Source of the DNA: a virus
Lineage: Duplodnaviria; Heunggongvirae; Uroviricota; Caudoviricetes
DNA length: 40,110 nt
Virus record (IMG/VR): IMGVR_UViG_2897369580_000002
Reading direction: 5' to 3' (one strand)
This document shows positions 1,072 to 40,110 of this stretch, one piece after another (within the stretch, counting starts at the first letter, position 1; each line of letters opens with the position of its first letter). Position numbers and translations under genes: made by a program. Below the pieces are notes generated by a model that was given only the letters and a program-made list of their open reading frames with translations, was not told where the DNA came from and made no database searches.

Positions 1072-1110
1072 ACGATGTTAGTAACTTCAAACCTATAATT
1101 CTTTAGGATA

Positions 1111-1142
1111 AAAAACCCTCTGTAGTAACAGAGGGTTTTGTT
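1111..1142. terminator. bidirectional rho-independent terminator
   Basis: AAAAA-CCCTCTGT-agta-ACAGAGGG-TTTTGTT: 8-bp perfect stem flanked by A-run and T-run. Confidence 0.8.
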
Positions 1143-1163
1143 CATTCATAGTGCAGGGTCAAA

Positions 1164-1178
1164 TCATTCCCACTCAAT
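1164..1178 (-). other. guaA 3'-terminal codons (att core remnant at left prophage junction)
   Basis: TCATTCCCACTCAAT is the reverse complement of ATT GAG TGG GAA TGA (I-E-W-E-stop), recalled as the GMP synthase C-terminus; phage genes start immediately to the right. Confidence 0.6.
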
Positions 1179-1288
1179 TATTTACGGATACCATAACCAA
1201 TTGAGTGATAACATTTTTCCAAAACTCAATTTTCCTCGTACCGTTTTATATACCGTCACCGGAAATCAGTACCATGAAAAATGCCATG

Positions 1289-3086: not shown

Positions 3087-3158
3087 AACGAAACCCGTTT
3101 ATTTGCAAACACCCTGCTTCAGGAAAAGTATACCGCGCAACAACACACCATTTACGGT

Positions 3159-5621
3159 TCAATTCCCTGTTAATTGCAAAACTTGCTCTTCCAGCTTTTT
3201 AACCCTGCGTCTCATCATCGCAGATTCCAGAATCAGAGCCTCTTCATAACGGATACCGTAACATTCACCAGCCTCGACGGCTTCGCGTACCAGAACCTTT
3301 GTCTGTATAAGTGGGTAAACTCCTGCAGAATGCTCTTCTTCCGTCACATCCCTGTATTCTGCCGGGGTCTCATTCCACTTGTCATAACAGATAAATGCCA
3401 GTCGTGACACATCTATGCCTTCATTCTGAAATACACTGATAACATGCTGCGCAACTGCACCAAAGTGCCATCTTGCTCCGTCTTTACCTTTCACTTCGAT
3501 CCTGTCAAGGTACTGGTATGAAACCCATTCCACTCTTTCCCATGCGTCCAGTATTTTCTCATCAATAACCTCTGGAGCAGTCTTGAAACGCGCATCGGAC
3601 AGCACCGTAAACGCTGACTGGGTAAATCCCCCCGACCATGCACGACCAGCCAACCCAAGAGAATAAGTATTCGTTGTCGATGGTGTCATGGCTGAATCAG
3701 AAAACTGTATATATTCTGAATTTCCAGTAGATATTCGAATATTTCCATTTATTAGCGACATAGTGCCTTTAGTATTATCACTATTGAATAATTTCAATTG
3801 CGAACTTATACCGCCTCCCACAGCCAGAGATACATCGCCTTCAGCAAGCATTCTGAATTTATCTGCAGAAACAAGCGTCTGGTTAGCAAGGTTAAAATAT
3901 TTAACCCACCATTCAAAACGCCCTGACATAGTCCCAACGTACTGACCAAGCGCAGGGACGTGAACAACATTGCTATTTGTAGTGCCGTCTATACTGGAAA
4001 TACCAGTCACCGCTGATGCAGAACTCAGAATATTATTTCTGTCACCCGGATGTTTAATTTCAACAAAGTTCCTGATACACCCTTCCTCGAAGGTAACCAC
4101 GCCGGAAGAACTATACATGGGGAATATTGACGCATAATTACTGCGTGCAGCATCTAAGAAACGAATGGTTGTAGATGTCTGCAGATCTCCTGATTCATTT
4201 TTCCCATCACACCCAGTCATTAGAATATTACTGGCAATATTATTATTTCCCTGAACGGTGACTCCGTGCGCCTGCTTTGCGTCCGATTCAGAGTAATCAA
4301 CCAGCACATTCGAAATCAGGTTACCAGTCCCCTTGCCAACAACTACTGCGGCGTATTTTGGGTTGTTAGCCATTACACTGCTAATGATATTATTCGTTGG
4401 GGCAGTTTCCGTCTCAGTTCCATTGTAAACAACGTGCTGACACTCTTCACCAATAACATTGCTGACAATGTTATATTTTGCTGCTGTTTTAAGTTCCACT
4501 GCACCAAACTGAGGATAATTTCTGGCTATCACACCATCAATTAGCGTATTTTGCGATGAATCAAAAAGCACACAACCTGCTTTTTTATTATTTGCGAACC
4601 CTAAATACTCTCCTCTTATATCTCTAACAATGTAACCTGACGGAATACCATTATTCGGATAAGCGATCAAGCTAAATCCTGTTCCTCGCGTATTTGTAAA
4701 TCTGATATTTTTAACCGATACATCATGGCCACCTGAAAATGACACCTGGTGTCCCTGCACACTATCATCTGATTTATTTCCCATAATTGTTAGCGTACTA
4801 AGCATGCCACCATCGGGCATGTTAAAAACCAGATGATTACCATCTCTGTCATACTGTTTTATCGTTCCCCCACCTGTTCCGTACAAGCCACAACGTGAAA
4901 GAGAAACTAAAGATGTATTGAATACCCCTTCCGGAACAAAAACACTGCTAAACGAATGTAATGATTTTGTAAAAGCATCCTTGTTATCATTTAAGATTCC
5001 ATTTTGAGCTCCAAAATCCTTAATGCTGACACCATCACGCATCTTATCCTGGAACGTTCTGTATACCGCTCCAGAACCATACTGAATAAACCAACCAAAA
5101 CCACCAATAACTCCGGCGATTGCAGCATCGACATAATTACGCATTGAGCGATTATTTACAGCGTCCTGCTCAAGTGATGGATCGGCAAGGTTAGATATTC
5201 TGTTTTGCTTTGCATCGTAATATTTTGCAAGCAAAGATGGTTTCATCAATGCACGTCTGAACCACCCAAAACATCGCTGGATCAGCATCGTCAGGTAGTC
5301 AAATGCATCCTCATGAACTTCGGGGAAAAATTTTCCCTGATTGCGAAGATCAGTCTCCTGCACCACATCAAGCACACGCTCTATCGTGATTCGCCAGCCA
5401 GCAGCAAGCGGCGACGGAAGAACCACTGCACCGCCACTATAAGTTCCCGCCCCTGTTACCGTATAACCAGCATCCAGCACTAGTTTTGTAACGTTACCGT
5501 TAAGGTCAGACACCTGAACAACCAGGTCGGATTTTTTGAAAATACGGAAGGTATACGGAAATGATGTCGTAACGCCGTTACCTGTGTATTCGTTGTGGTC
5601 AACTTCGGTTGAGACCGTCAT
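3159..5621 (-). CDS. tailspike / tail fibre with beta-helix domain and C-terminal intramolecular chaperone (peptidase S74-like)
   Basis: Central pectate-lyase-like signature (GVSIKDFGAQNGILNDNKDAF); C-terminal ~146 aa begin with SDARFK auto-cleavage-type motif typical of self-cleaving chaperone domains; RBS GGAG. Confidence 0.8.
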   Translation of the reverse strand: MTVSTEVDHNEYTGNGVTTSFPYTFRIFKKSDLVVQVSDLNGNVTKLVLDAGYTVTGAGTYSGGAVVLPSPLAAGWRITIERVLDVVQETDLRNQGKFFPEVHEDAFDYLTMLIQRCFGWFRRALMKPSLLAKYYDAKQNRISNLADPSLEQDAVNNRSMRNYVDAAIAGVIGGFGWFIQYGSGAVYRTFQDKMRDGVSIKDFGAQNGILNDNKDAFTKSLHSFSSVFVPEGVFNTSLVSLSRCGLYGTGGGTIKQYDRDGNHLVFNMPDGGMLSTLTIMGNKSDDSVQGHQVSFSGGHDVSVKNIRFTNTRGTGFSLIAYPNNGIPSGYIVRDIRGEYLGFANNKKAGCVLFDSSQNTLIDGVIARNYPQFGAVELKTAAKYNIVSNVIGEECQHVVYNGTETETAPTNNIISSVMANNPKYAAVVVGKGTGNLISNVLVDYSESDAKQAHGVTVQGNNNIASNILMTGCDGKNESGDLQTSTTIRFLDAARSNYASIFPMYSSSGVVTFEEGCIRNFVEIKHPGDRNNILSSASAVTGISSIDGTTNSNVVHVPALGQYVGTMSGRFEWWVKYFNLANQTLVSADKFRMLAEGDVSLAVGGGISSQLKLFNSDNTKGTMSLINGNIRISTGNSEYIQFSDSAMTPSTTNTYSLGLAGRAWSGGFTQSAFTVLSDARFKTAPEVIDEKILDAWERVEWVSYQYLDRIEVKGKDGARWHFGAVAQHVISVFQNEGIDVSRLAFICYDKWNETPAEYRDVTEEEHSAGVYPLIQTKVLVREAVEAGECYGIRYEEALILESAMMRRRVKKLEEQVLQLTGN

Positions 5622-5724
5622 GTTAAATCTCCAGATAGTCGCAGCACCCGTTGCGCCGCATATCTGGTTATTCTATTACCCAAAAAACCATATATGGATA
5701 GAAAGACTGTGAATATGAATAGAT

Positions 5725-5797: not shown

Positions 5798-5817
5798 ATT
5801 GCATGGAGAAGATTAAG

Positions 5818-6075
5818 ATGCAGCAGTATCACTATCCACTGGAAGAGGGATTTACCGAAAGGATTCACACGCCGGGAGGCGTCAGGTCACTGGTGGAGGG
5901 ATCGCACTTGATGAAATTACTCCGGGATCTCGATAAGGATGGATTTAATGTCGATGGCCCACTTGCCGAACTGACTGCACTGATTAACTACGTCACCAGC
6001 TCACAGATGTCTATGCAGGATCTGCAAACACATCTCGACTATTGTGCCGAACAATTACGAAAACAAACCAGATAA
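5818..6075 (+). CDS. small protein homologous to the C-terminal domain of the adjacent antirepressor
   Basis: ATG at 5818 with RBS GGAGAA (alternative ATG at 5803); aligns with the C-terminus of the 6391-7086 product (LMKLLRDLDKDGFNVDGPLAELT vs LMNLLNQLQEDGHDVSGAAAELT; DLQTH vs DIQTH). Confidence 0.6.
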   Translation: MQQYHYPLEEGFTERIHTPGGVRSLVEGSHLMKLLRDLDKDGFNVDGPLAELTALINYVTSSQMSMQDLQTHLDYCAEQLRKQTR

Positions 6076-6106
6076 GGTTTGCAATCACCAAATGGAGTGC
6101 TTATAT

Positions 6107-6121
6107 TTACCTTTGCGGTAA
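6107..6121. promoter_or_regulatory. palindrome TTACC-N5-GGTAA (copy 2)
   Basis: TTTACCTTTGCGGTAAA at 6106-6122. Confidence 0.55.
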
Positions 6122-6390
6122 ATTTACAACGCACTCCTCTTGTGCCATAGTAATCGAGCACTGGCAAAATCCAGTGCCGGGATTGGCGTCCCGGATTACT
6201 AAAAGGCGCATTCACCGCGCAAGCGGTTTTTTTATGCGTATAGCACGGCCACATTCGTATTATGGTGGGCTGTGTGGGGGCACCGAAAGGTGCGCCGGGT
6301 CCTTTTAGCCGGTTACGCCAACCCTGCACAGTTCACCACCAACCGATTGGCGTCGGTAGTGGTGATTAACCAGACTAAAAGGTAACCACT

Positions 6391-7086
6391 ATGACAGCTA
6401 CAAAAAGCACGTCCATTTTTTCTTTCGAATCCCAAGCCGATATACGGGTAATCGTCATTAATGGTGAGCCATGGTTTATCGCTTCAGATGTTTGTCGGGC
6501 TATAGGCATAGCAAACCATCGAGATGCTGTTCGAAAACTTGATGATGATGAGAAGGGCGTCGCTTCAACCGACACCCCTGGCGGTGAGCAAGAATCGATC
6601 ATCATCTCCGAGTCAGGCCTCTACACACTGATCCTCCGCTGCCGCGACGCAGTGACACCAGGCACTATCCCCTACCGCTTTCGTAAATGGGTTACAGGTG
6701 AGGTTCTTCCTCAGATCCGCCGCACCGGAAGTTACATTAAAAACTCGCTCCCGCAGGAAGAACGCATAAAGATGGTTGCCGACCAGGTAGCCAACGCCAC
6801 GGCGTCAGCAGTAATGCAGGCGATGAAGATAGAGAACAAAACCTACAGTGCCCCACTGAAGCCCGGCTACCGCAGCCTGATTCATTCGCCGTCTGGTGTT
6901 CTCGGCCTGACGGAGAACTCACTGCTGATGAATCTGCTGAACCAGTTACAGGAAGACGGGCACGATGTATCGGGCGCGGCGGCGGAGCTGACCACCATGT
7001 TCTGCTACATCGTCGGTGTGAGCAAATGCCTGCGTGATATCCAGACCCACGCGGAGTACATCAACGACAAAGCAGGATTCTTCTGA
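6391..7086 (+). CDS. Bro-N domain antirepressor (Ant-like)
   Basis: N-terminal Bro-N signature (FSFESQADIRVIVINGEPWFIASDVCRAIG); RBS AAGGTAACC; C-terminal domain shared with the upstream small protein. Confidence 0.75.
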   Translation: MTATKSTSIFSFESQADIRVIVINGEPWFIASDVCRAIGIANHRDAVRKLDDDEKGVASTDTPGGEQESIIISESGLYTLILRCRDAVTPGTIPYRFRKWVTGEVLPQIRRTGSYIKNSLPQEERIKMVADQVANATASAVMQAMKIENKTYSAPLKPGYRSLIHSPSGVLGLTENSLLMNLLNQLQEDGHDVSGAAAELTTMFCYIVGVSKCLRDIQTHAEYINDKAGFF

Positions 7087-7158
7087 CGGGCGGCGGCACA
7101 GGGATGTGCCTTTAAATAATTCTGTACAGATTGCAGACCGGGGGTGAATAGCGTACTA

Positions 7159-7173
7159 TTACCTTAAAGGTAA
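7159..7173. promoter_or_regulatory. palindrome TTACC-N5-GGTAA (copy 3)
   Basis: ATTACCTTAAAGGTAAA at 7158-7174, upstream of the 7216 gene. Confidence 0.55.
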
Positions 7174-7215
7174 ACCTGTTTTTATTTTATACCTGTAACT
7201 TACCGGAGATTAAAG

Positions 7216-7542
7216 ATGACAAAACTTGGATTCGTGATGAGAGGTCCGGTAAGAAGCGGAACTCATGCAAAGCGTAGCAAGAGTCGTATTTTTACTGGTA
7301 AGGTTGTAGCACGTAAATCAGCTATTGGCTCGTTCAATAGTGAAAATGCGGCATTGCGCCATATTTTTATCAGCACAAAGCCAAGAGCATCCGCTGATGT
7401 GCATACAATGTCTATTCCTATCACAAAGAATATCAAGCGGATAAAAAAGCTCTCATCTGCAGAATCAAAAGAGATATCTTTCCGCCAGCTTAACTCATTA
7501 GAAACGCATATGAAGGAAGAGGAATTCGATGTTTTTGAGTGA
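7216..7542 (+). CDS. hypothetical basic protein (AT-rich cargo operon, gene 1)
   Basis: ATG with RBS GGAG; Lys/Arg-rich; visibly lower GC than surrounding phage DNA; overlaps next gene. Confidence 0.5.
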   Translation: MTKLGFVMRGPVRSGTHAKRSKSRIFTGKVVARKSAIGSFNSENAALRHIFISTKPRASADVHTMSIPITKNIKRIKKLSSAESKEISFRQLNSLETHMKEEEFDVFE

Positions 7543-8041
7543 GTATAGCGGGAAGGTTATACCTACTGGTGAGTTTAAAACTGATGACTTTCTGATTTCG
7601 CTAAAAGATGCTTTTAAACAACACTGGCGTCATGGTCATCATCCTGATCTGGGAAAAGATACTCTTTTTGAAAGACCAGACGAAGTATTAGGCTTCCATC
7701 TCAGAAAGGTTCATGTCAATATTGGTGAATATGCATCATATTCATACTCATGTACTGAACAGTGTTGGGATGAGTGGTCATATGGATTGATTGATGAACA
7801 AGGAAATTACAGGCCAAAACCAACCAGTAACGCATATCTCATATATGCAGTCAATGAAATAAGAGATGCAGCCTTACTAGCTTATTGGGACCCGCCCGCA
7901 CACACCAAAGCTAACGCAAAAGTTTGGATGGATTCCGTATTGAATTTCACAAAATTATTTCATGAACGAACGAATACAGCTCCACTTAGTAGAAATGTTT
8001 ATCCGTGGGATTATTCGTACAAATCCAAAAAGCCTGCATAG
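7529..8041 (+). CDS. hypothetical protein (AT-rich cargo operon, gene 2)
   Basis: ATG with RBS AAGGAAGAGGAA; start overlaps end of gene 1 (coupled); aromatic and His-rich; no recognisable motif. Confidence 0.5.
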   Translation: MFLSEYSGKVIPTGEFKTDDFLISLKDAFKQHWRHGHHPDLGKDTLFERPDEVLGFHLRKVHVNIGEYASYSYSCTEQCWDEWSYGLIDEQGNYRPKPTSNAYLIYAVNEIRDAALLAYWDPPAHTKANAKVWMDSVLNFTKLFHERTNTAPLSRNVYPWDYSYKSKKPA

Positions 8042-8122
8042 TAGTTTTTTATGGACGAAACAAAAGTCAGTGCTACACTCATTGACGCCACATTGAGGTG
8101 GCTTATAGATGGAAATTTCACA

Positions 8123-8284
8123 ATGAAAAAAGCATTTGCTGCACTGTTCGTTTTGTTGTCTCTGGTAGCTTCAACTCAGGCCTTTGCCGGTCGTTGTCAG
8201 CACGACAGCGACACTGCTGCTGACGGCTCCCGCTGCGGTGGGCGTTCTGCGGATTCCCGCCCGGGTGGCGGTGGCATTCGTTAA
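8123..8284 (+). CDS. small secreted Gly/Ser/Arg-rich peptide with two Cys
   Basis: Internal ATG gives MKKAFAALFVLLSLVASTQAFA signal peptide then ~31-aa mature peptide; weak RBS; alternative TTG/ATG start at 8051 in ORF track. Confidence 0.35.
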   Translation: MKKAFAALFVLLSLVASTQAFAGRCQHDSDTAADGSRCGGRSADSRPGGGGIR

Positions 8285-8306
8285 AAACAAGGCCGCGAAA
8301 GCGGCC
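8281..8306 (-). terminator. rho-independent terminator ending the minus-strand structural transcript
   Basis: GGCCGC-gaaa-GCGGCC hairpin, followed on the minus strand by TTGTTTTTAA. Confidence 0.6.
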
Positions 8307-8307
8307 T

Positions 8308-8319
8308 GTGACATGTCAC
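8308..8319. repeat. 12-bp palindrome GTGACATGTCAC (copy A)
   Basis: Perfect palindrome; identical 12-mer also at 26008-26019 and 28282-28293. Confidence 0.7.
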
Positions 8320-8320
8320 G

Positions 8321-8881
8321 CTACATTGATATATGATTCATAAAGTAGCTTAAAGATTTACTTCCCAGAAAAGAAATTTCTTTTCCTGGATATGTCGCAA
8401 TAATTGAGCATGACTTATCCCCGTTAGAGGTAACAAATCCTGAATAACCTACTTGTTCTTTACCATTTTGTTGCTTGGCTAAAAAGTAGAGGTAGCTTAT
8501 CTTTTTGCCCTCTGGGTAAAACTCTGCCAAACCAGTATCGGTGATTGAATATTTTATTCTCCCGCCTTGAGTAACGTTTTCCATCTCAAGTTTAGCTATG
8601 TCTTTTCTGTTGTATTCAGCATTGATTTTCCTTTCGAAATCAATGTTGTTTTCAAATGAGTAGGAAGCAACAGTCTGAATAGATGGGAACACGTTTATCT
8701 GGATGCCCCCACAGTCGGCACAGGTATAAAGGTATGAATCAGATGGAATCCCCATAAAAGAAAACTGAGTTACCTTAAATTTATCGCTATCTCCAAAGTA
8801 TTGAAGTTCGCATTTAACATTTTGCCCTGCAAAAGAAAATGCAGACATCAATATTGAAACAAAAAATATAATTGCCTTCAT
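8321..8881 (-). CDS. secreted protein of unknown function (AT-rich, end of structural operon)
   Basis: ATG; signal peptide MKAIIFFVSILMSAFSFAG; AT-rich coding; directly follows the 849-aa internal protein. Confidence 0.55.
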   Translation of the reverse strand: MKAIIFFVSILMSAFSFAGQNVKCELQYFGDSDKFKVTQFSFMGIPSDSYLYTCADCGGIQINVFPSIQTVASYSFENNIDFERKINAEYNRKDIAKLEMENVTQGGRIKYSITDTGLAEFYPEGKKISYLYFLAKQQNGKEQVGYSGFVTSNGDKSCSIIATYPGKEISFLGSKSLSYFMNHISM

Positions 8882-19233: not shown

Positions 19234-19838
19234 CAGGACAACCTCGCAATGGTAAACTCGTCAACCGGTGGCTGTGGTTCCTGTGATTCATTCTGGCTAT
19301 GCGAGCCAGCACTAAGAATCACGCGATTGTACATATTGAGGGCAAACGTACCGAGGTCTGCATTCCCAGTCAGCGCCATGTTAATAGCTGCCGCAAGACG
19401 CCAGGCCAACGCCTCCATAAAAATGGCATCAAACATGTTCACATCTGTAACGCGAGAGACATACTTGAGCCATGCCTGAGGCTGGTCTGTGTAGATCAAC
19501 TTTCCTGTTCCGTTGGTGTCTGCACCAACTTCGTACTGAACGCGCATTGCTGCTGTTGGATTGCGTACACCAGGAAGCATAATTTCAGTAATGCGCAGAC
19601 AATCTGACGGGTACTGGTACGCATATTCCCAGTCAGGCGGTGGATTGCTCGTATCTGCAAGCGCCACGCGTTTGGTAGCAAAGTTCCAGTCAAAATCAGA
19701 AAGCACAGTATCACGGCAGGCCTCAAAGTGCAGCGAACATTCCCCCGCTTCCTTGCTGGCTTCCGTCAGGCTGTTAATGCTGCGGCTGTTGCCAATATTG
19801 GACAGCGCACGATTACAGATCTCTACTACAGAGGCCAT
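19233..19838 (-). CDS. virion protein (head-tail adaptor candidate)
   Basis: ATG at 19838 with RBS GGAGGT (ORF-track start at 19841 is GTG); coupled to flanking genes. Confidence 0.45.
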   Translation of the reverse strand: MASVVEICNRALSNIGNSRSINSLTEASKEAGECSLHFEACRDTVLSDFDWNFATKRVALADTSNPPPDWEYAYQYPSDCLRITEIMLPGVRNPTAAMRVQYEVGADTNGTGKLIYTDQPQAWLKYVSRVTDVNMFDAIFMEALAWRLAAAINMALTGNADLGTFALNMYNRVILSAGSHSQNESQEPQPPVDEFTIARLS

Positions 19839-20161
19839 CACTCACCTCCGTTACCGTACAGAGTTTCAGCCGCTGATTTTTCTACATCCCCGGAAACAGG
19901 AGCGATCGCCATATCAGTGATCTGCAGATCGGCGCTGCGATTAACGCCATCGTCAGTTTCTCTGGCAGACAGGCCTCGGATAACAGCCTTTGCAGTTATC
20001 ATCACTTCTGTTCCGACGCCCTGAGGTTGCGCCTTCAGCTTATTCAATGTGTCGTTATTCAGCGTGATGCACAGCCCCCACGGGTATTCATCGCGAGTTC
20101 TGGTTTCTCCGCTCTCATCCTGGTAGCTGTCAGTGCCGGTTTTGAGGTTTACGAGTTCCAT
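19838..20161 (-). CDS. small virion-module protein
   Basis: ATG at 20161 with RBS AGGAG (ORF-track start at 20167 is GTG). Confidence 0.45.
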   Translation of the reverse strand: MELVNLKTGTDSYQDESGETRTRDEYPWGLCITLNNDTLNKLKAQPQGVGTEVMITAKAVIRGLSARETDDGVNRSADLQITDMAIAPVSGDVEKSAAETLYGNGGE

Positions 20162-20211
20162 ATACACTCCTGCAATAAAGGGGCCGAAGCCCCTTGTCTC
20201 ATCCGCGAGGC

Positions 20212-20547
20212 TTACACGCCCAGTTCTTTACGCTTATCTGCGATCTTCTCGCGGAGCGTTTCTGCTTTGGCGTTATGGTGTGGCTTCTCGTTAAAGAGCA
20301 ATTCGTACTCTTCACGGAGCTTATCCAGTTCACCATCATCTGACACATCGTTGATGATTTTGGTGCTGGTTGCTGCCATAGACACCTTTCCTGCTACCTT
20401 TGCTTTTGCCTGTCTGGCTGCATCGTTAACAGGTTCCAGTGCGCTACCAGGCTCACCTTCGTATTCGATTTCTGCCCCCTCCGGCCACAGAGTGTTATGG
20501 ATATGAGAGAGGCGCAGAACGCGGTATCTTGGTTTCTCACCTGACAT
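20212..20547 (-). CDS. hypothetical head-module protein
   Basis: ATG at 20547 with RBS AAGGTGA (ORF-track start at 20556 is GTG); charged protein. Confidence 0.45.
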   Translation of the reverse strand: MSGEKPRYRVLRLSHIHNTLWPEGAEIEYEGEPGSALEPVNDAARQAKAKVAGKVSMAATSTKIINDVSDDGELDKLREEYELLFNEKPHHNAKAETLREKIADKRKELGV

Positions 20548-20557
20548 CAATATCACC

Positions 20558-20995
20558 TTAACCAGTTACTTTTGAGCGGATCGGATACGGCGTATTGGCA
20601 TCAACATCAAGACTGATACCAGCAGTGAATTCGCCAGCCGTTAGTGGGCCAGTTGCGACGGAGTAGTTAACACGCAGATATCGCTGAACACCGGCAGGCA
20701 CCTTTGCAGAAACAACTCGTTTACCTGCTGTCAGGGCGGTCTTTGCCAGTGCGCCACTATCATAAATAGTGGTCCATGAGCTGTTATCCTCACTCGTCTG
20801 CAACTGGATGTTTACAGTTGCATCACCGCTTGCCGCGGCGGCTGTGTTAACCAGCGCCCAAAACTCAAGCGGGTAACCCACGCCGATATCACGACGTTTT
20901 CCGTCAATTGGACCGAGATCGATTACGTCAGTAGAAGCCGCGGTATTCGTAACCGCCTGAGCTTCGGAGAACATCAACAGTTTGTCGGTGATCAT
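20558..20995 (-). CDS. capsid-associated protein (decoration candidate)
   Basis: ATG with RBS GGAG; directly downstream of major capsid gene; 145 aa. Confidence 0.4.
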   Translation of the reverse strand: MITDKLLMFSEAQAVTNTAASTDVIDLGPIDGKRRDIGVGYPLEFWALVNTAAAASGDATVNIQLQTSEDNSSWTTIYDSGALAKTALTAGKRVVSAKVPAGVQRYLRVNYSVATGPLTAGEFTAGISLDVDANTPYPIRSKVTG

Positions 20996-25366: not shown

Positions 25367-25443
25367 GTGGTATTAGCTCAGTTGGACAGAGCAACCGCCT
25401 TCTAAGCGGTTGGTCGCAGGTTCGAATCCTGCATGCCACGCCA
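25367..25443 (+). tRNA. tRNA-Arg (anticodon TCT), phage-encoded
   Basis: Hand-folded cloverleaf: acceptor GTGGTAT/ATGCCAC, D-arm GCTC..GAGC, anticodon stem ACCGC/GCGGT with loop CTTCTAA, T-arm GCAGG-TTCGAAT-CCTGC, discriminator G, encoded CCA. Confidence 0.9.
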
Positions 25444-32416: not shown

Positions 32417-33204
32417 AAGAAATCCTCCCATGCTTCAGGGCTGTTCCAGTGCGGAACGTTGTTATCAGGTAATGTTGATTGCTTCTGTCTGCTAATCTGC
32501 AGCCGCCTTGCCAGCTTCTGCTCCCACTGTGCCTGATGGTATGCCTTACCCTCAGCCATCCAGTAAATTCTGAACTCTGCAAGTTCCTGTGCCGTTGGCA
32601 GACTGTCCAGGTAGATCCCCTGCAATGAGCTTTTCCGAAGAAAGTCATCTGATGGCTGCCATTGTTCATGCATGACAAATTTGCCTAATTGCCCTGGCCC
32701 ACCAGGAGGAACAAAGTTATTCATCACGGCGTTGTTTGCGCCGGGGTCATGAGGCACAGAATCCCCGCTTTTTGTCCTGCTCTCCCTCTCTTGGTTAAAT
32801 GACTGGTTATATGACTGGTTCTGGATCCCGTTTTTGGGATCATTCAACATCCCGTTTTTGGGTATATTCCCGTTTTCGGTAACATTACCGTTTTCGGGTT
32901 CATTGCCCCCCTCCCGGTTGCCTTTAATGTTCCCGTTTTTGGTTATATTAAGAGAGAAAACCCGCACTCTTTTTGTCGCTCCCTTTCTCTCTCCGGTATC
33001 TGAAATAAGCCCCATTTTCATGAGCGATATAAGCCCGGCCTGCACGGTTTTTTTATTCAGGCAAGTGTCTTTAACGAGGCGTTCTATGCTGGGGTAGCAG
33101 AGGTTATATTCATCGGCTCTGTCAGCCATCGAGAGCAGTATGAGCTTTAATGATGAGCTACCTGGATCTGTCTCCCAGGCCCAATCTGTTGCATGTCTGC
33201 TCAT
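32413..33204 (-). CDS. replication initiator (lambda O-like) with internal iterons
   Basis: ATG with RBS GGAG; N-terminal winged-helix-like region; central repetitive peptide (NGNIKGN..NGNVTENGNIPKNG) encoded by iteron repeats; upstream of P-like gene. Confidence 0.65.
   Translation of the reverse strand: MSRHATDWAWETDPGSSSLKLILLSMADRADEYNLCYPSIERLVKDTCLNKKTVQAGLISLMKMGLISDTGERKGATKRVRVFSLNITKNGNIKGNREGGNEPENGNVTENGNIPKNGMLNDPKNGIQNQSYNQSFNQERESRTKSGDSVPHDPGANNAVMNNFVPPGGPGQLGKFVMHEQWQPSDDFLRKSSLQGIYLDSLPTAQELAEFRIYWMAEGKAYHQAQWEQKLARRLQISRQKQSTLPDNNVPHWNSPEAWEDFL
32825..32946. repeat. iteron array (candidate origin of replication) inside the O-like gene
   Basis: Five direct repeats of about 16-18 bp with core CCCGTTTT(T/C)GG at 32826, 32850, 32869, 32888 and 32931. 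Confidence 0.65.
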
Positions 33205-38853: not shown

Positions 38854-40110
38854 TTATTTATTACTGTCTTCCATCCACTTCTCAAACTTCGACGGGGAGA
38901 ACGGAATCAGATCCGTATGCTCCCCGTCAATCCAGGAATCAATCATATCTGCCCACTGCTGCAACATGTAGGCGCGCTGTCTGGCGTATTCCGCTTTGTT
39001 ATATACGGCGCGCACACCTTTCTGCTCATGTGCCAGAGCCTTTTCAATCCAGTCTGAAGGATAACCAGCCTCATGCAACAACGTACTGGCTGTACGGCGC
39101 ATATCGTGTACGGTGAAGTCCTGAATATGCTCACCATCTTCATTTATTATTTTCACCGTTCTGTCGATCAGAGAGTTCAACGCGGCATTAGATAATGGCT
39201 TCCGGAAATTGTAACGACCAGGAACCAGGTATTCACTTCCACCAGCGCACATCTGCAACCCAACCAATATATCCTGTGCTTGTTTAGGCAGGTAAATAAC
39301 GTGCGCCCGGCTTCCCTTCATGCGGCCTGAAGGAATTGTCCATGTCCATTTTTTAAAATCTATTTCATCCCACGTTGCATTGGTGAATTCGCCTTTACGA
39401 ACCATAGTGATAAGCACCAGCTTTAAAGCCATTTTCATAGTGCCCATAGCACCAATGGCATCCAGCGTGCGGAAGAACAGACCAATTTCTTCTGGTGTCA
39501 GTGTTCGCTCTCGTGGTTTAAATATGGCGATAGACGAAGGTTTAATGTCAGCAGCAGGATTAAACAAACCATGACCACGGTCATTGGCGTGACGGTATAC
39601 GCTGCTGATGATCTCCCTGGCCTGTACTGCTGTTGCCCGACCACCGCGTTCGACAATCCGGTCACACAAATCACGAACCATCGATGTGGTAATTTCAGCC
39701 ATCATTTTGTTGCCAAGAACCGGAAGTATGTCACGGTCGATCACCGCCTGCTTCATTGCGCGGGTACTTTCAGCCAGGATGACGTGTTTCATATAACTGT
39801 CGGTATGTACCGCAAACGTCTCGGCACCACGAATCTTTTTGATACCGTCACGTTTAGCCGCAGCCGGCGACTGGCCTGCTTTAAGCAGCTTCTTTGCAGC
39901 AATCAGTTCTTCTCGCGCTTCTGCCAGGCTGATACCGTCACGCCCATACTGCCCGATTACCAGTGTTTCGCGGCGACCGTTGATACGGTAGTCATAGCGA
40001 AACGAGACCGTACCTGACGTAAGCACAGCTACATACAGCCCGTCACGATCGGAAACTTTGTACAGTTTGTCCTGTGGCTTGAGGTTTTTTAATTTTGTAT
40101 CGGTAAGCAC
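38854..40110 (-). CDS. tyrosine integrase (P4/CP4-57-like, N-terminal arm-binding domain); 5' end at or beyond window edge
   Basis: Catalytic residues in HDMRRTAST and ALAHEQKGVRAVY; N-terminal DGLYVAVLTSGTVSFRYDY arm-binding-like domain; ORF touches window end (GTG at edge). Confidence 0.9.
   Translation of the reverse strand: MLTDTKLKNLKPQDKLYKVSDRDGLYVAVLTSGTVSFRYDYRINGRRETLVIGQYGRDGISLAEAREELIAAKKLLKAGQSPAAAKRDGIKKIRGAETFAVHTDSYMKHVILAESTRAMKQAVIDRDILPVLGNKMMAEITTSMVRDLCDRIVERGGRATAVQAREIISSVYRHANDRGHGLFNPAADIKPSSIAIFKPRERTLTPEEIGLFFRTLDAIGAMGTMKMALKLVLITMVRKGEFTNATWDEIDFKKWTWTIPSGRMKGSRAHVIYLPKQAQDILVGLQMCAGGSEYLVPGRYNFRKPLSNAALNSLIDRTVKIINEDGEHIQDFTVHDMRRTASTLLHEAGYPSDWIEKALAHEQKGVRAVYNKAEYARQRAYMLQQWADMIDSWIDGEHTDLIPFSPSKFEKWMEDSNK

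What the first reader, a model, noticed from the sequence alone, without database searches (positions are those of the whole stretch)
3159..5621. Tailspike with beta-helix domain and self-cleaving C-terminal chaperone
The 820-aa protein combines a pectate-lyase-like beta-helix signature with a C-terminal ~146-aa domain (encoded at about 3162-3599) that begins with an SDARFK motif, matching the intramolecular chaperone auto-processing domains of tailspikes and endosialidases. It is a likely host-range determinant with polysaccharide depolymerase activity.
Basis: partly seen in the sequence, partly recalled or inferred. Interest (0 to 1): 0.5.

Follow-up and report, generated by a model that had tools for sequence, protein, structure and literature searches.

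The report
Prophage K5-lyase tailspike with self-cleaving chaperone

Summary
The protein has three modules:

- **Residues 1-165:** an epsilon15/phiV10-type particle-binding domain.
- **Residues ~199-674:** a right-handed beta-helix plus stalk, 60% identical to the crystallised K5 (heparosan) lyase KflA (2x3h, E=6e-185). The residues I recall as catalytic, F372/E376/K378/Y399, are conserved.
- **Residues 675-820:** a Peptidase_S74 intramolecular chaperone with the Ser675-Lys680 dyad, the GAVAQ motif and a terminal helix.

An AF2 model and Foldseek confirm both folds. The gene opens the spike-lysis unit of an intact phiV10-like prophage beside yfgI.

The lyase part occurs, at >=99% identity, in 67 of 5,426 complete E. 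coli genomes. About 36 of those 67 also carry the K5 gene kfiC, against about 4% of other genomes. The remaining lysogens have K1, another capsule, or no kps at the usual site, which suggests capsule switching after lysogeny.

It is very probably the published prophage K5 lyase ElmA or a near-identical allele, but I could not obtain that sequence.

Verdict: interpretation supported and sharpened; already known; low interest.

The parts
3159..5621 (-). Complete tail spike CDS (820 aa plus stop at 3159-3161); predicted 89.7 kDa precursor
   Evidence: ORF list; PHROG tail spike families phrog_14895 E=1e-223 and phrog_1171 E=6e-205; masses
5629..5632 (-). Shine-Dalgarno GGAG, 7 nt upstream of the ATG
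   Evidence: Sequence read directly...CTGGAGATTTAAC-ATG
5127..5621 (-). N-terminal particle-binding (adaptor) domain, aa 1-165, epsilon15/phiV10 type
   Evidence: 68% aa identity to the phiV10 tail fiber gp25 N-terminus over 165 aa, with no similarity beyond. 80-96% identical N-termini sit on many E. coli prophage spikes with other catalytic modules. Match to Dpo31/Dpo36 N-terminal domain structures, E=6.5e-30. The DNA mosaic junction with phiV10 lies just inside the gene.
5028..5126 (-). Linker/neck, aa 166-198; low-confidence region and module junction
   Evidence: AF2 pLDDT <50 for residues 147-194; homology to K5 lyases starts at about aa 190-199
4047..5027 (-). Right-handed parallel beta-helix lyase domain, aa ~199-525
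   Evidence: 2x3h (K5A lyase) E=5.8e-185 by sequence. Foldseek top hit is 2x3h_A at 60% identity and TM 0.75 over the target, followed by HK620, CBA120 and Sf6 beta-helix spikes. AF2 pLDDT 85-97 with periodic short strands. GC 0.41 against ~0.52 for the prophage backbone.
4425..4508 (-). Putative catalytic cluster: F372 (4506-4508), E376 (4494-4496), K378 (4488-4490), Y399 (4425-4427)
   Evidence: These map to KflA F202/E206/K208/Y229. E376, K378 and F372 are conserved in all 18 K5-lyase-type homologs and Y399 in 16 of 18; all differ in 3 relatives with other central domains. The residue list comes from my memory of Thompson et al. 2010; only the residue identities at those positions were checked here.
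3600..4046 (-). C-terminal stalk, aa ~526-674 (intertwined trimerisation region in KflA), ending at the cleavage serine
   Evidence: Aligned to the C-terminal part of 2x3h, whose deposited chain ends at the Ser aligned with S675. AF2 strands at 552-647 have low-to-moderate confidence, as expected for a monomer model of an intertwined trimer.
3162..3599 (-). Intramolecular chaperone / auto-processing domain (Peptidase_S74, CIMCD/ICA), aa 675-820, predicted 16.9 kDa released fragment
   Evidence: Pfam PF13884 E=1.4e-13; 3gw6 and 3gud sequence matches; Foldseek 3gud TM 0.88 at rmsd 2.8 A; S675, K680, G721 and A724 invariant and Q725 nearly invariant (>=90%) across 21 homologs; terminal helix 792-819
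3582..3599 (-). Cleavage motif S675-D-A-R-F-K680 (Ser-Lys dyad)
   Evidence: Same S-x4-K spacing as endoNF S911/K916 (alignment; dyad described in PMC8326128 and PMC3742440)
1289..3086 (-). Lysis cassette immediately downstream on the same strand: two holins, GH19 endolysin, DUF2514 spanin-like protein
   Evidence: Pfam Phage_holin_8, Phage_holin_3_7, Glyco_hydro_19 and DUF2514; RefSeq annotation of the identical locus

Best explanation
The gene encodes the receptor-binding tail spike of an intact phiV10/epsilon15-type temperate podovirus integrated beside yfgI. The 89.7-kDa precursor trimerises with the help of its C-terminal chaperone domain, whose terminal helices form a coiled coil that nucleates folding of the intertwined stalk. 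Once folded, the Ser675-Lys680 dyad cuts the chain at Ser675. This releases a ~17-kDa fragment and leaves a stable ~73-kDa-per-chain trimer. The N-terminal 165 residues dock the trimer on the phage tail. The beta-helix binds the E. coli K5 capsule (heparosan, -4GlcA-beta1,4-GlcNAc-alpha1-) and cleaves it by beta-elimination at a site that includes E376, K378 and Y399. That lets the virion tunnel through the capsule to the outer membrane and makes the phage K5-specific. Shown here: ORF, domain architecture, folds, conserved motifs, prophage context, statistical association with kfi genes. Inferred: trimerisation, self-cleavage, lyase chemistry and heparosan specificity. It is most likely the published chromosomal K5 lyase ElmA or a close allele.
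For: - **Domain architecture and homology:** Peptidase_S74 lies above the Pfam cut-off. Tail spike PHROGs score E~1e-223. 2x3h K5 lyase scores E=5.8e-185, 9vvr E=1.3e-225, and the chaperones 3gw6 and 3gud also match.
- **Relation to named K5 lyases:** The protein is 54-57% identical to phage proteins named K5 lyase, including record Y10025 of phage K5.
- **Catalytic positions:** KflA positions 202/206/208/229 are F/E/K/Y and are conserved here as F372/E376/K378/Y399. Identity to the KflA type peaks at 75% in residues 381-440, next to these residues.
- **Structure:** The AF2 model's best PDB match is 2x3h (60% identity), and the CTD matches 3gud at TM 0.88.
- **Chaperone motifs:** The Ser-Lys dyad and GVIAQ-type motif are documented for this domain, and K5 lyases 'e.g. 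ElmA' are listed among its families (PMC8326128 and PMC3742440).
- **ElmA in the literature:** ElmA is described as a prophage lyase of E. coli K5 that specifically cleaves heparosan (PMC3594737; PMC12834895).
- **Prophage context:** The packaging-to-tail module is 97.7% identical in DNA to phiV10 and the gene order is the same.
- **Ecology:** About 36 of 67 genomes with this lyase also carry kfiC, against about 233 of 5,359 without it (odds ratio 26). Strain 4/0, with a 100% identical spike, has a full kfiDCBA locus.
Against: - About 31 of 67 lysogens lack kfiC. MCJCHV-1 has a K1 neu locus. ATCC BAA-2469 has a wecB/wecC-type region 2. One ST131 isolate has no kps between hyb and pheV. The spike therefore does not match the present capsule of nearly half its hosts.
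- Identity to the enzymes of proven specificity is only 57-60%, and 31% at the start of the helix.
- The kfiC association is inflated by clonal relatedness, since many lysogens look like a few lineages.
- The catalytic residue list is from memory, because the primary paper was not held.
- The ElmA sequence could not be obtained, so identity with it is unverified.
Confidence: 0.8

Rival explanations
1. The architecture and mechanism are the same (a trimeric beta-helix lyase spike with a self-cleaving chaperone), but the natural substrate is not K5 heparosan. It could be another uronic-acid polysaccharide, or the enzyme could have broader or dual specificity.
For: Nearly half of the lysogens lack the K5 locus, with K1, another type, or no kps at the usual site. 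Identity to KflA is only 57-60%, and the first helix turns are 31% identical. Tail spike specificity can change with few substitutions (general knowledge).
Against: The putative catalytic residues and their surroundings are the most conserved part. There is a 12-fold enrichment of kfiC among lysogens. Non-K5 lysogens show signs of local capsule replacement in an otherwise identical pheV island: BAA-2469 and 4/0 share flanking protein accessions but differ in kpsD/C/S and region 2. Strains with near-identical genome coordinates differ in kfiC (MS10711 against MS10858 and MS8324). The literature describes a prophage K5 lyase, ElmA, of exactly this kind.
Confidence: 0.12
2. The gene is an inert relic. 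The prophage is cryptic and the spike is no longer expressed or assembled, so it has no present function.
For: It persists in hosts whose capsule it cannot target. A prophage fixed in clonal lineages could be decaying.
Against: The window holds a complete gene set with intact long ORFs co-linear with phiV10: integrase, terminase, portal, protease, capsid, tail and ejection proteins, spike and lysis cassette. The spike is >=99% identical and full length in all 67 genomes. All functional motifs are intact.
Confidence: 0.05
3. The C-terminal domain acts only as a retained trimerisation or attachment module and is not cleaved off.
For: Cleavage was not observed here. The endoNF helper residue R897 has no exact counterpart in an ungapped alignment: A661 aligns with it and R660 is adjacent (direct reading).
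Against: S675 and K680 are invariant across 21 homologs. The deposited mature KflA chain ends at the aligned serine. In MyRF, cleavage needs only the dyad and trimerisation (PMC8326128).
Confidence: 0.03

Closest known systems
ElmA, the chromosomal/prophage N-acetylheparosan (K5) lyase of E. coli K5 (Legoux et al. 1996; Clarke et al. 2000)
   Same: It is an E. coli prophage-borne K5-lyase homolog with the C-terminal chaperone domain, and the literature lists 'K5 lyases (e.g. ElmA)' among ICA-domain families. It is present in only a subset of E. coli genomes (67 of 5,426). My recollection, unverified, is that ElmA is also 820 codons long. Among 5.8 billion proteins, only this cluster and one 89%-identical cluster (P0016, same prophage type and site) are E. 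coli chromosomal proteins of this architecture.
   Different: The sequence identity could not be checked, because neither the ElmA sequence nor the primary papers are held. RefSeq annotates this protein only as 'tail fiber domain-containing protein'.
KflA, K5 lyase tail spike of coliphage K5A (PDB 2x3h; Thompson et al. 2010), and its relatives in K1-5, Kayfunavirus, Vectrevirus and Kagunavirus phages (including PDB 9vvr)
   Same: It shares the beta-helix lyase domain, stalk and self-cleaving CTD, at 57-60% identity over aa 199-817. The F/E/K/Y catalytic positions are conserved. The mature KflA chain ends at the equivalent serine.
   Different: The N-terminal adaptor differs: epsilon15/phiV10 type here, and T7-type (PF03906) or others there. 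The CTD has a ~25-residue insertion at aa ~750-783. It is carried by a temperate phage rather than a lytic one.
Endosialidase endoNF of phage K1F and its C-terminal intramolecular chaperone domain (PDB 3gw6); GA-1 gp12 (3gud); T5 L-shaped tail fibre (4uw8)
   Same: The CTD is homologous, with the Ser-Lys dyad, the same spacing, the GxxAQ motif and a terminal coiled-coil helix.
   Different: The catalytic domain is unrelated: a beta-propeller sialidase in endoNF against a beta-helix lyase here. The substrate is also different (polysialic acid).
phiV10 gp25 / epsilon15 gp20 tail spikes (Uetakevirus)
   Same: Same virion type, same gene position, and 68% identical N-terminal 165 aa. The upstream DNA is ~98% identical.
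   Different: The receptor-binding part is unrelated, since phiV10 targets O157 O-antigen. phiV10 also has the receptor-modifying O-acetyltransferase gene oac after the spike, which is absent here.

Membership tests
Peptidase S74 / C-terminal intramolecular chaperone (CIMCD, ICA) domain | Sequence match to the family model above the curated threshold | tested here: met
   PF13884 at 51.3 bits against a cut-off of 22, residues 675-735; phmmer hits to 3gw6 and 3gud
Peptidase S74 / C-terminal intramolecular chaperone (CIMCD, ICA) domain | Ser-Lys catalytic dyad with S-x4-K spacing at the domain start (endoNF S911/K916) | tested here: met
   S675 and K680, invariant in 21 homologs; the dyad is described in PMC8326128 and PMC3742440
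Peptidase S74 / C-terminal intramolecular chaperone (CIMCD, ICA) domain | Conserved G-[VI]-[IV]-A-Q trimerisation motif and C-terminal helix forming a coiled coil | tested here: met
   G721-A-V-A-Q725, with G721 and A724 invariant and Q725 nearly invariant; AF2 helix at 792-819; the motif is described in PMC3742440
Peptidase S74 / C-terminal intramolecular chaperone (CIMCD, ICA) domain | Fold of the solved chaperone domains | tested here: met
   Foldseek 3gud_B TM 0.88 at rmsd 2.8 A; 3gw6 E~6e-9
Peptidase S74 / C-terminal intramolecular chaperone (CIMCD, ICA) domain | Autoproteolytic release after trimer folding | not testable with these tools
   Requires expression and SDS-PAGE or mass spectrometry. 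Predicted products are 72.9 and 16.9 kDa.
K5 (heparosan) lyase tail spikes (KflA/ElmA) | Homologous single-stranded right-handed beta-helix catalytic domain | tested here: met
   2x3h E=5.8e-185 and 60% identity; AF2 beta-helix at pLDDT 85-97
K5 (heparosan) lyase tail spikes (KflA/ElmA) | Proposed catalytic residues of KflA (F202, E206, K208, Y229; list recalled from Thompson et al. 2010) | tested here: met
   F372, E376, K378 and Y399 are conserved here and across K5-lyase-type homologs. Caveat: the residue list itself could not be verified because the paper is not held.
K5 (heparosan) lyase tail spikes (KflA/ElmA) | Beta-eliminative cleavage of heparosan | not testable with these tools
   An enzyme assay is needed (A232, product mass spectrometry).
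K5 (heparosan) lyase tail spikes (KflA/ElmA) | Association with K5-encapsulated hosts | tested here: inconclusive
   About 36 of 67 lysogens carry kfiC against about 4.3% of other genomes, and this was verified directly in strain 4/0. However, K1, another capsule type and a kps-less lysogen also exist, and the test is not corrected for phylogeny.
K5 (heparosan) lyase tail spikes (KflA/ElmA) | Sequence identity with the published ElmA | not tested
   The ElmA sequence and the primary papers were unavailable.
Epsilon15/phiV10-type (Uetakevirus) tail spike | Shared N-terminal adaptor domain and position before the lysis genes in a phiV10-like genome | tested here: met
   68% identity over aa 1-165 to phiV10 gp25; co-linear genome with 97.7% DNA identity over the structural module
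   No pectate lyase Pfam family appeared at E<=1. Only the generic Beta_helix model matched, below its threshold. The resemblance is at the level of fold only.

The most novel reading that the evidence does not exclude
An intact, >=99% conserved spike persists in successful extraintestinal lineages that no longer make K5 (K1, another capsule, or no kps at the usual site). This could mean the protein has a second role or target. It might recognise another bacterial surface glycan, or it might bind or cleave unsulfated (heparosan-like) domains of host heparan sulfate when released by spontaneous induction. In that case it would act as a colonisation factor and not only as a phage receptor-binding protein.
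Probability: 0.06. Interest if true: 0.55.

Novelty: already known. Interest (0 to 1): 0.15.

Why it matters
The main value is annotation. RefSeq calls this protein only 'tail fiber domain-containing protein' in 67 complete E. coli genomes, yet it can be assigned with good confidence as an ElmA/KflA-type K5 (heparosan) lyase tail spike with a self-cleaving chaperone. Such enzymes are used to size heparosan for bio-engineered heparin and as anti-capsule agents, so a correct label is useful. A secondary point is that the prophage may mark past K5 encapsulation in lineages that have since switched or lost their capsule. That would be a small but testable epidemiological observation. Nothing here challenges current understanding.

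Tried and rejected
- **Primary papers not held.** I tried to read Legoux 1996 (ElmA), Clarke 2000, Thompson 2010 (KflA structure) and O'Leary 2013. The KflA catalytic residue list and ElmA's length therefore rest on memory. I checked the residue list only by confirming that KflA positions 202/206/208/229 really are F/E/K/Y.
- **ElmA sequence or primers not found.** Papers and supplements gave nothing usable. Cluster member names were generic.
- **All lysogens are K5: rejected.** The first three inspected were K1, another capsule type, and kps-less at the usual site. A chimeric-query survey replaced this expectation with a 54% against 4.3% association.
- **endoNF Arg897 counterpart: inconclusive.** An ungapped reading puts A661 there, with R660 adjacent, so I make no claim.
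- **Pectate-lyase family membership: rejected**.
- **Regulatory scan uninformative.** The sigma-70 promoter and terminator scan around the gene found no more sites than shuffled sequence.
- **Plus-strand ORFs inside the gene:** the 60-92 aa ORFs listed were not searched against any library. They lie wholly inside a strongly supported CDS, so I treated them as mechanical.
Full report
**Observation.** The window has an ATG-initiated ORF of 820 codons at 3159..5621 on the minus strand. It is preceded by a GGAG ribosome-binding site 7 nt upstream. SDARFK occurs once, at residues 675-680.

**What the protein is.** Pfam places Peptidase_S74 ('chaperone of endosialidase') at residues 675-735, well above its curated threshold (E=1.4e-13). 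The generic Beta_helix model hits residues 278-438 only below threshold, and no pectate lyase family matches. PHROGs assigns the protein to tail spike families (E~1e-223).

Against solved structures:
- Residues 192-814 match a full-length tail spike (9vvr, E=1.3e-225).
- Residues 199-675 match the coliphage K5A lyase KflA (2x3h, E=5.8e-185). Its deposited mature chain ends at the serine aligned with S675.
- The C-terminus matches the intramolecular chaperones of endosialidase endoNF (3gw6), GA-1 gp12 (3gud) and the T5 L-shaped fibre.

An AlphaFold2 model built from a 60-sequence alignment is confident (pLDDT 85-97) over residues ~200-500, with the strand periodicity of a beta-helix. It is less confident where a trimer is needed. 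Its best PDB match is 2x3h (60% identity, TM 0.75 over the target), followed by other beta-helix spikes. The C-terminal domain superposes on 3gud (TM 0.88, rmsd 2.8 A). The refutation condition 'structure lacks a beta-helix' is therefore not met.

**Functional residues.** From memory, Thompson et al. 2010 implicated KflA F202, E206, K208 and Y229. The paper is not held. I checked that a 632-aa KflA-type sequence has exactly those residues at those positions. They map to F372, E376, K378 and Y399 here. They are conserved in the K5-lyase-type homologs and differ in three relatives with another central domain. Identity to the KflA type is 60% over the lyase and stalk. It peaks at 75% in residues 381-440, beside the catalytic positions, and is lowest (31%) in the first turns.

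For the chaperone domain, the literature defines four things (PMC8326128 and PMC3742440):
- a Ser-Lys dyad (endoNF S911/K916) that cuts at the serine once the trimer has formed;
- a conserved GVIAQ-type trimerisation motif;
- a terminal coiled-coil helix;
- the member families, listed as endosialidases, 'K5 lyases (e.g. ElmA)', T5 LTF and gp12.

The window protein has S675 and K680 with the same spacing, GAVAQ at 721-725, and a helix at 792-819. S675, K680, G721 and A724 are invariant in 21 homologs, and Q725 is nearly so. The predicted products are 72.9 kDa and 16.9 kDa.

**Surroundings.** The window is an E. coli chromosomal segment: yfgH and yfgI at 1-1071, then a complete prophage up to an integrase at 38854-40110. 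The packaging-to-tail module is 97.7% identical in DNA to Escherichia phage phiV10 (Uetakevirus, the epsilon15 group), and the gene order is the same. The spike is the first gene of a co-directional unit with two holins, a GH19 endolysin and a DUF2514 protein. An opposite-strand accessory block separates it from the structural operon.

The protein is a mosaic. DNA is ~98% identical to phiV10 through the upstream region and the first ~55 nt of the gene. Identity then falls to ~75% across the N-terminal domain (68% at the amino acid level over 165 residues) and disappears afterwards. The same N-terminal domain (80-96% identical) heads many E. coli prophage spikes with GH28-like, peptidase G2 or GDSL modules. 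The lyase and stalk modules have GC 0.41, against ~0.52 for the backbone. This is the usual modular exchange of receptor-binding domains.

**Distribution and a test of specificity.** The whole gene is 100% identical in many complete E. coli chromosomes, where it is annotated only as 'tail fiber domain-containing protein'. The lyase-plus-chaperone part occurs in exactly 67 of 5,426 genomes, all at >=99% identity. Most are human extraintestinal isolates, including ST131 and MCJCHV-1.

If the spike targets the K5 capsule, lysogens should be or have been K5. The first three I inspected were not:
- MCJCHV-1 has a K1 neu locus.
- ATCC BAA-2469 has a wecB/wecC-type region 2.
- An ST131 isolate has no kps between hyb and pheV, with IS1 at the junctions.

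I then took kfiC from the K5 locus of ABU 83972 and ran a chimeric query of 1,100 nt of lyase plus 600 nt of kfiC. It returned 300 records and 336 places. So 36 genomes have both segments, which is 36 of 67 lysogens (54%) against about 233 of 5,359 other genomes (4.3%), an odds ratio of 26. Strain 4/0, with a 100% identical spike, was checked directly and has kfiD, kfiC, a kfiB-like gene and kfiA between kpsS and kpsTM.

The exceptions look like capsule replacement after lysogeny. BAA-2469 and 4/0 share the same pheV-island flanking proteins by accession but differ in kpsD/C/S and region 2. Strains with nearly the same genome coordinates differ in kfiC, for example MS10711 against MS10858 and MS8324. 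The association is supportive but not corrected for clonal relatedness.

**Mechanism.** The precursor trimerises through the chaperone domain, and the stalk folds. The Ser675-Lys680 dyad then releases the 17-kDa domain. The mature trimer docks on the tail through residues 1-165 and depolymerises heparosan by beta-elimination, giving the phage K5 specificity. The architecture, folds, motifs and context are shown. The processing, chemistry and substrate are inferred from close homologs.

**Comparison with what is known.** The literature already describes ElmA, a prophage-borne heparosan lyase of E. coli K5. Among 5.8 billion proteins, only this cluster and an 89%-identical one, in the same prophage type at the same site, are E. 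coli chromosomal proteins of this architecture.

**Verdict.** The feature is real but already known, and interest is low. The only mildly unexpected point is the mismatch between spike specificity and the present capsule in nearly half of the lysogens. Capsule switching explains this most simply.

Noticed in passing
window 5803-8881; compare L002 (phiV10) 19345-20800: A low-GC (0.41-0.45) accessory block sits between the ejection-protein genes and the spike, mostly on the opposite strand. It holds a 90-aa protein (5803-6075), a Bro-N/Ant-like protein (6391-7086), a 108-aa ORF overlapping a YafO-family toxin-like gene (7216-7542 and 7529-8041; Pfam YafO is sub-threshold, RefSeq calls it a YafO family toxin), a 77-aa ORF (8051-8284) and a 186-aa protein on the minus strand with an N-terminal hydrophobic stretch resembling a signal peptide (8321-8881). 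It is larger than the equivalent block of phiV10. It may be a toxin-antitoxin or superinfection-exclusion cargo.
   Followed up: partly
window 5803-6072 and 6391-7083 (+ strand): The 90-aa protein next to the spike is 42% identical (E=5e-17) to the C-terminal ~80 residues of the Bro-N/Ant-like protein two genes away. This is a duplicated C-terminal module of unknown role.
   Followed up: partly
window 3087-3158, compared with L002 23636-24652: phiV10 carries the O-acetyltransferase gene oac right after its spike. It modifies the receptor and gives superinfection immunity. In this prophage the spike is followed directly by the holin gene, so no receptor-modifying gene accompanies the K5-lyase spike.
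   Followed up: partly
Lysogen genomes: L005 (MCJCHV-1 kps), L006 (ATCC BAA-2469 kps), L007-L009 (ST131 isolate 46), L012 (strain 4/0 kps): Hosts with a >=99.9% identical K5-lyase spike carry different capsule loci: K1, a wecB/wecC-type region 2, none at the usual site, or K5. The pheV-island flanks of BAA-2469 and 4/0 are the same by protein accession while kpsD/C/S and region 2 differ. This suggests capsule switching after prophage acquisition.
   Followed up: partly
window 25367-25443 (+ strand): A tRNA-Arg (anticodon TCT) gene lies inside the prophage, between the terminase and portal regions. The O157 typing phages 9 and 10 and phiv142-3 carry one too.
   Followed up: no
window 32825-32905: Four tandem copies of a ~21-nt motif (ATCCCGTTTTTGGGATCATTC and variants, spaced 18-24 nt) lie in the early or replication region of the prophage. 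They look like iterons or operator sites.
   Followed up: no
window 3270-3370 (aa ~750-783 of the spike): The chaperone domain has a ~25-residue insertion relative to KflA-type lyases (NETPAEYRDVTEEEHSAGVYPLIQTKVLVREAVE). It is modelled with low confidence. By position in the domain it may extend a beta-hairpin that contacts the stalk, like the 'tentacle' described for endoNF in PMC8326128, but I did not map it onto the endoNF secondary-structure elements.
   Followed up: no
window 1072-1288: The prophage end (attR) must lie in this 217-nt gap between yfgI and the last lysis gene. The window stops at the integrase start codon, so the other junction is outside it. The att core was not determined.
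   Followed up: no
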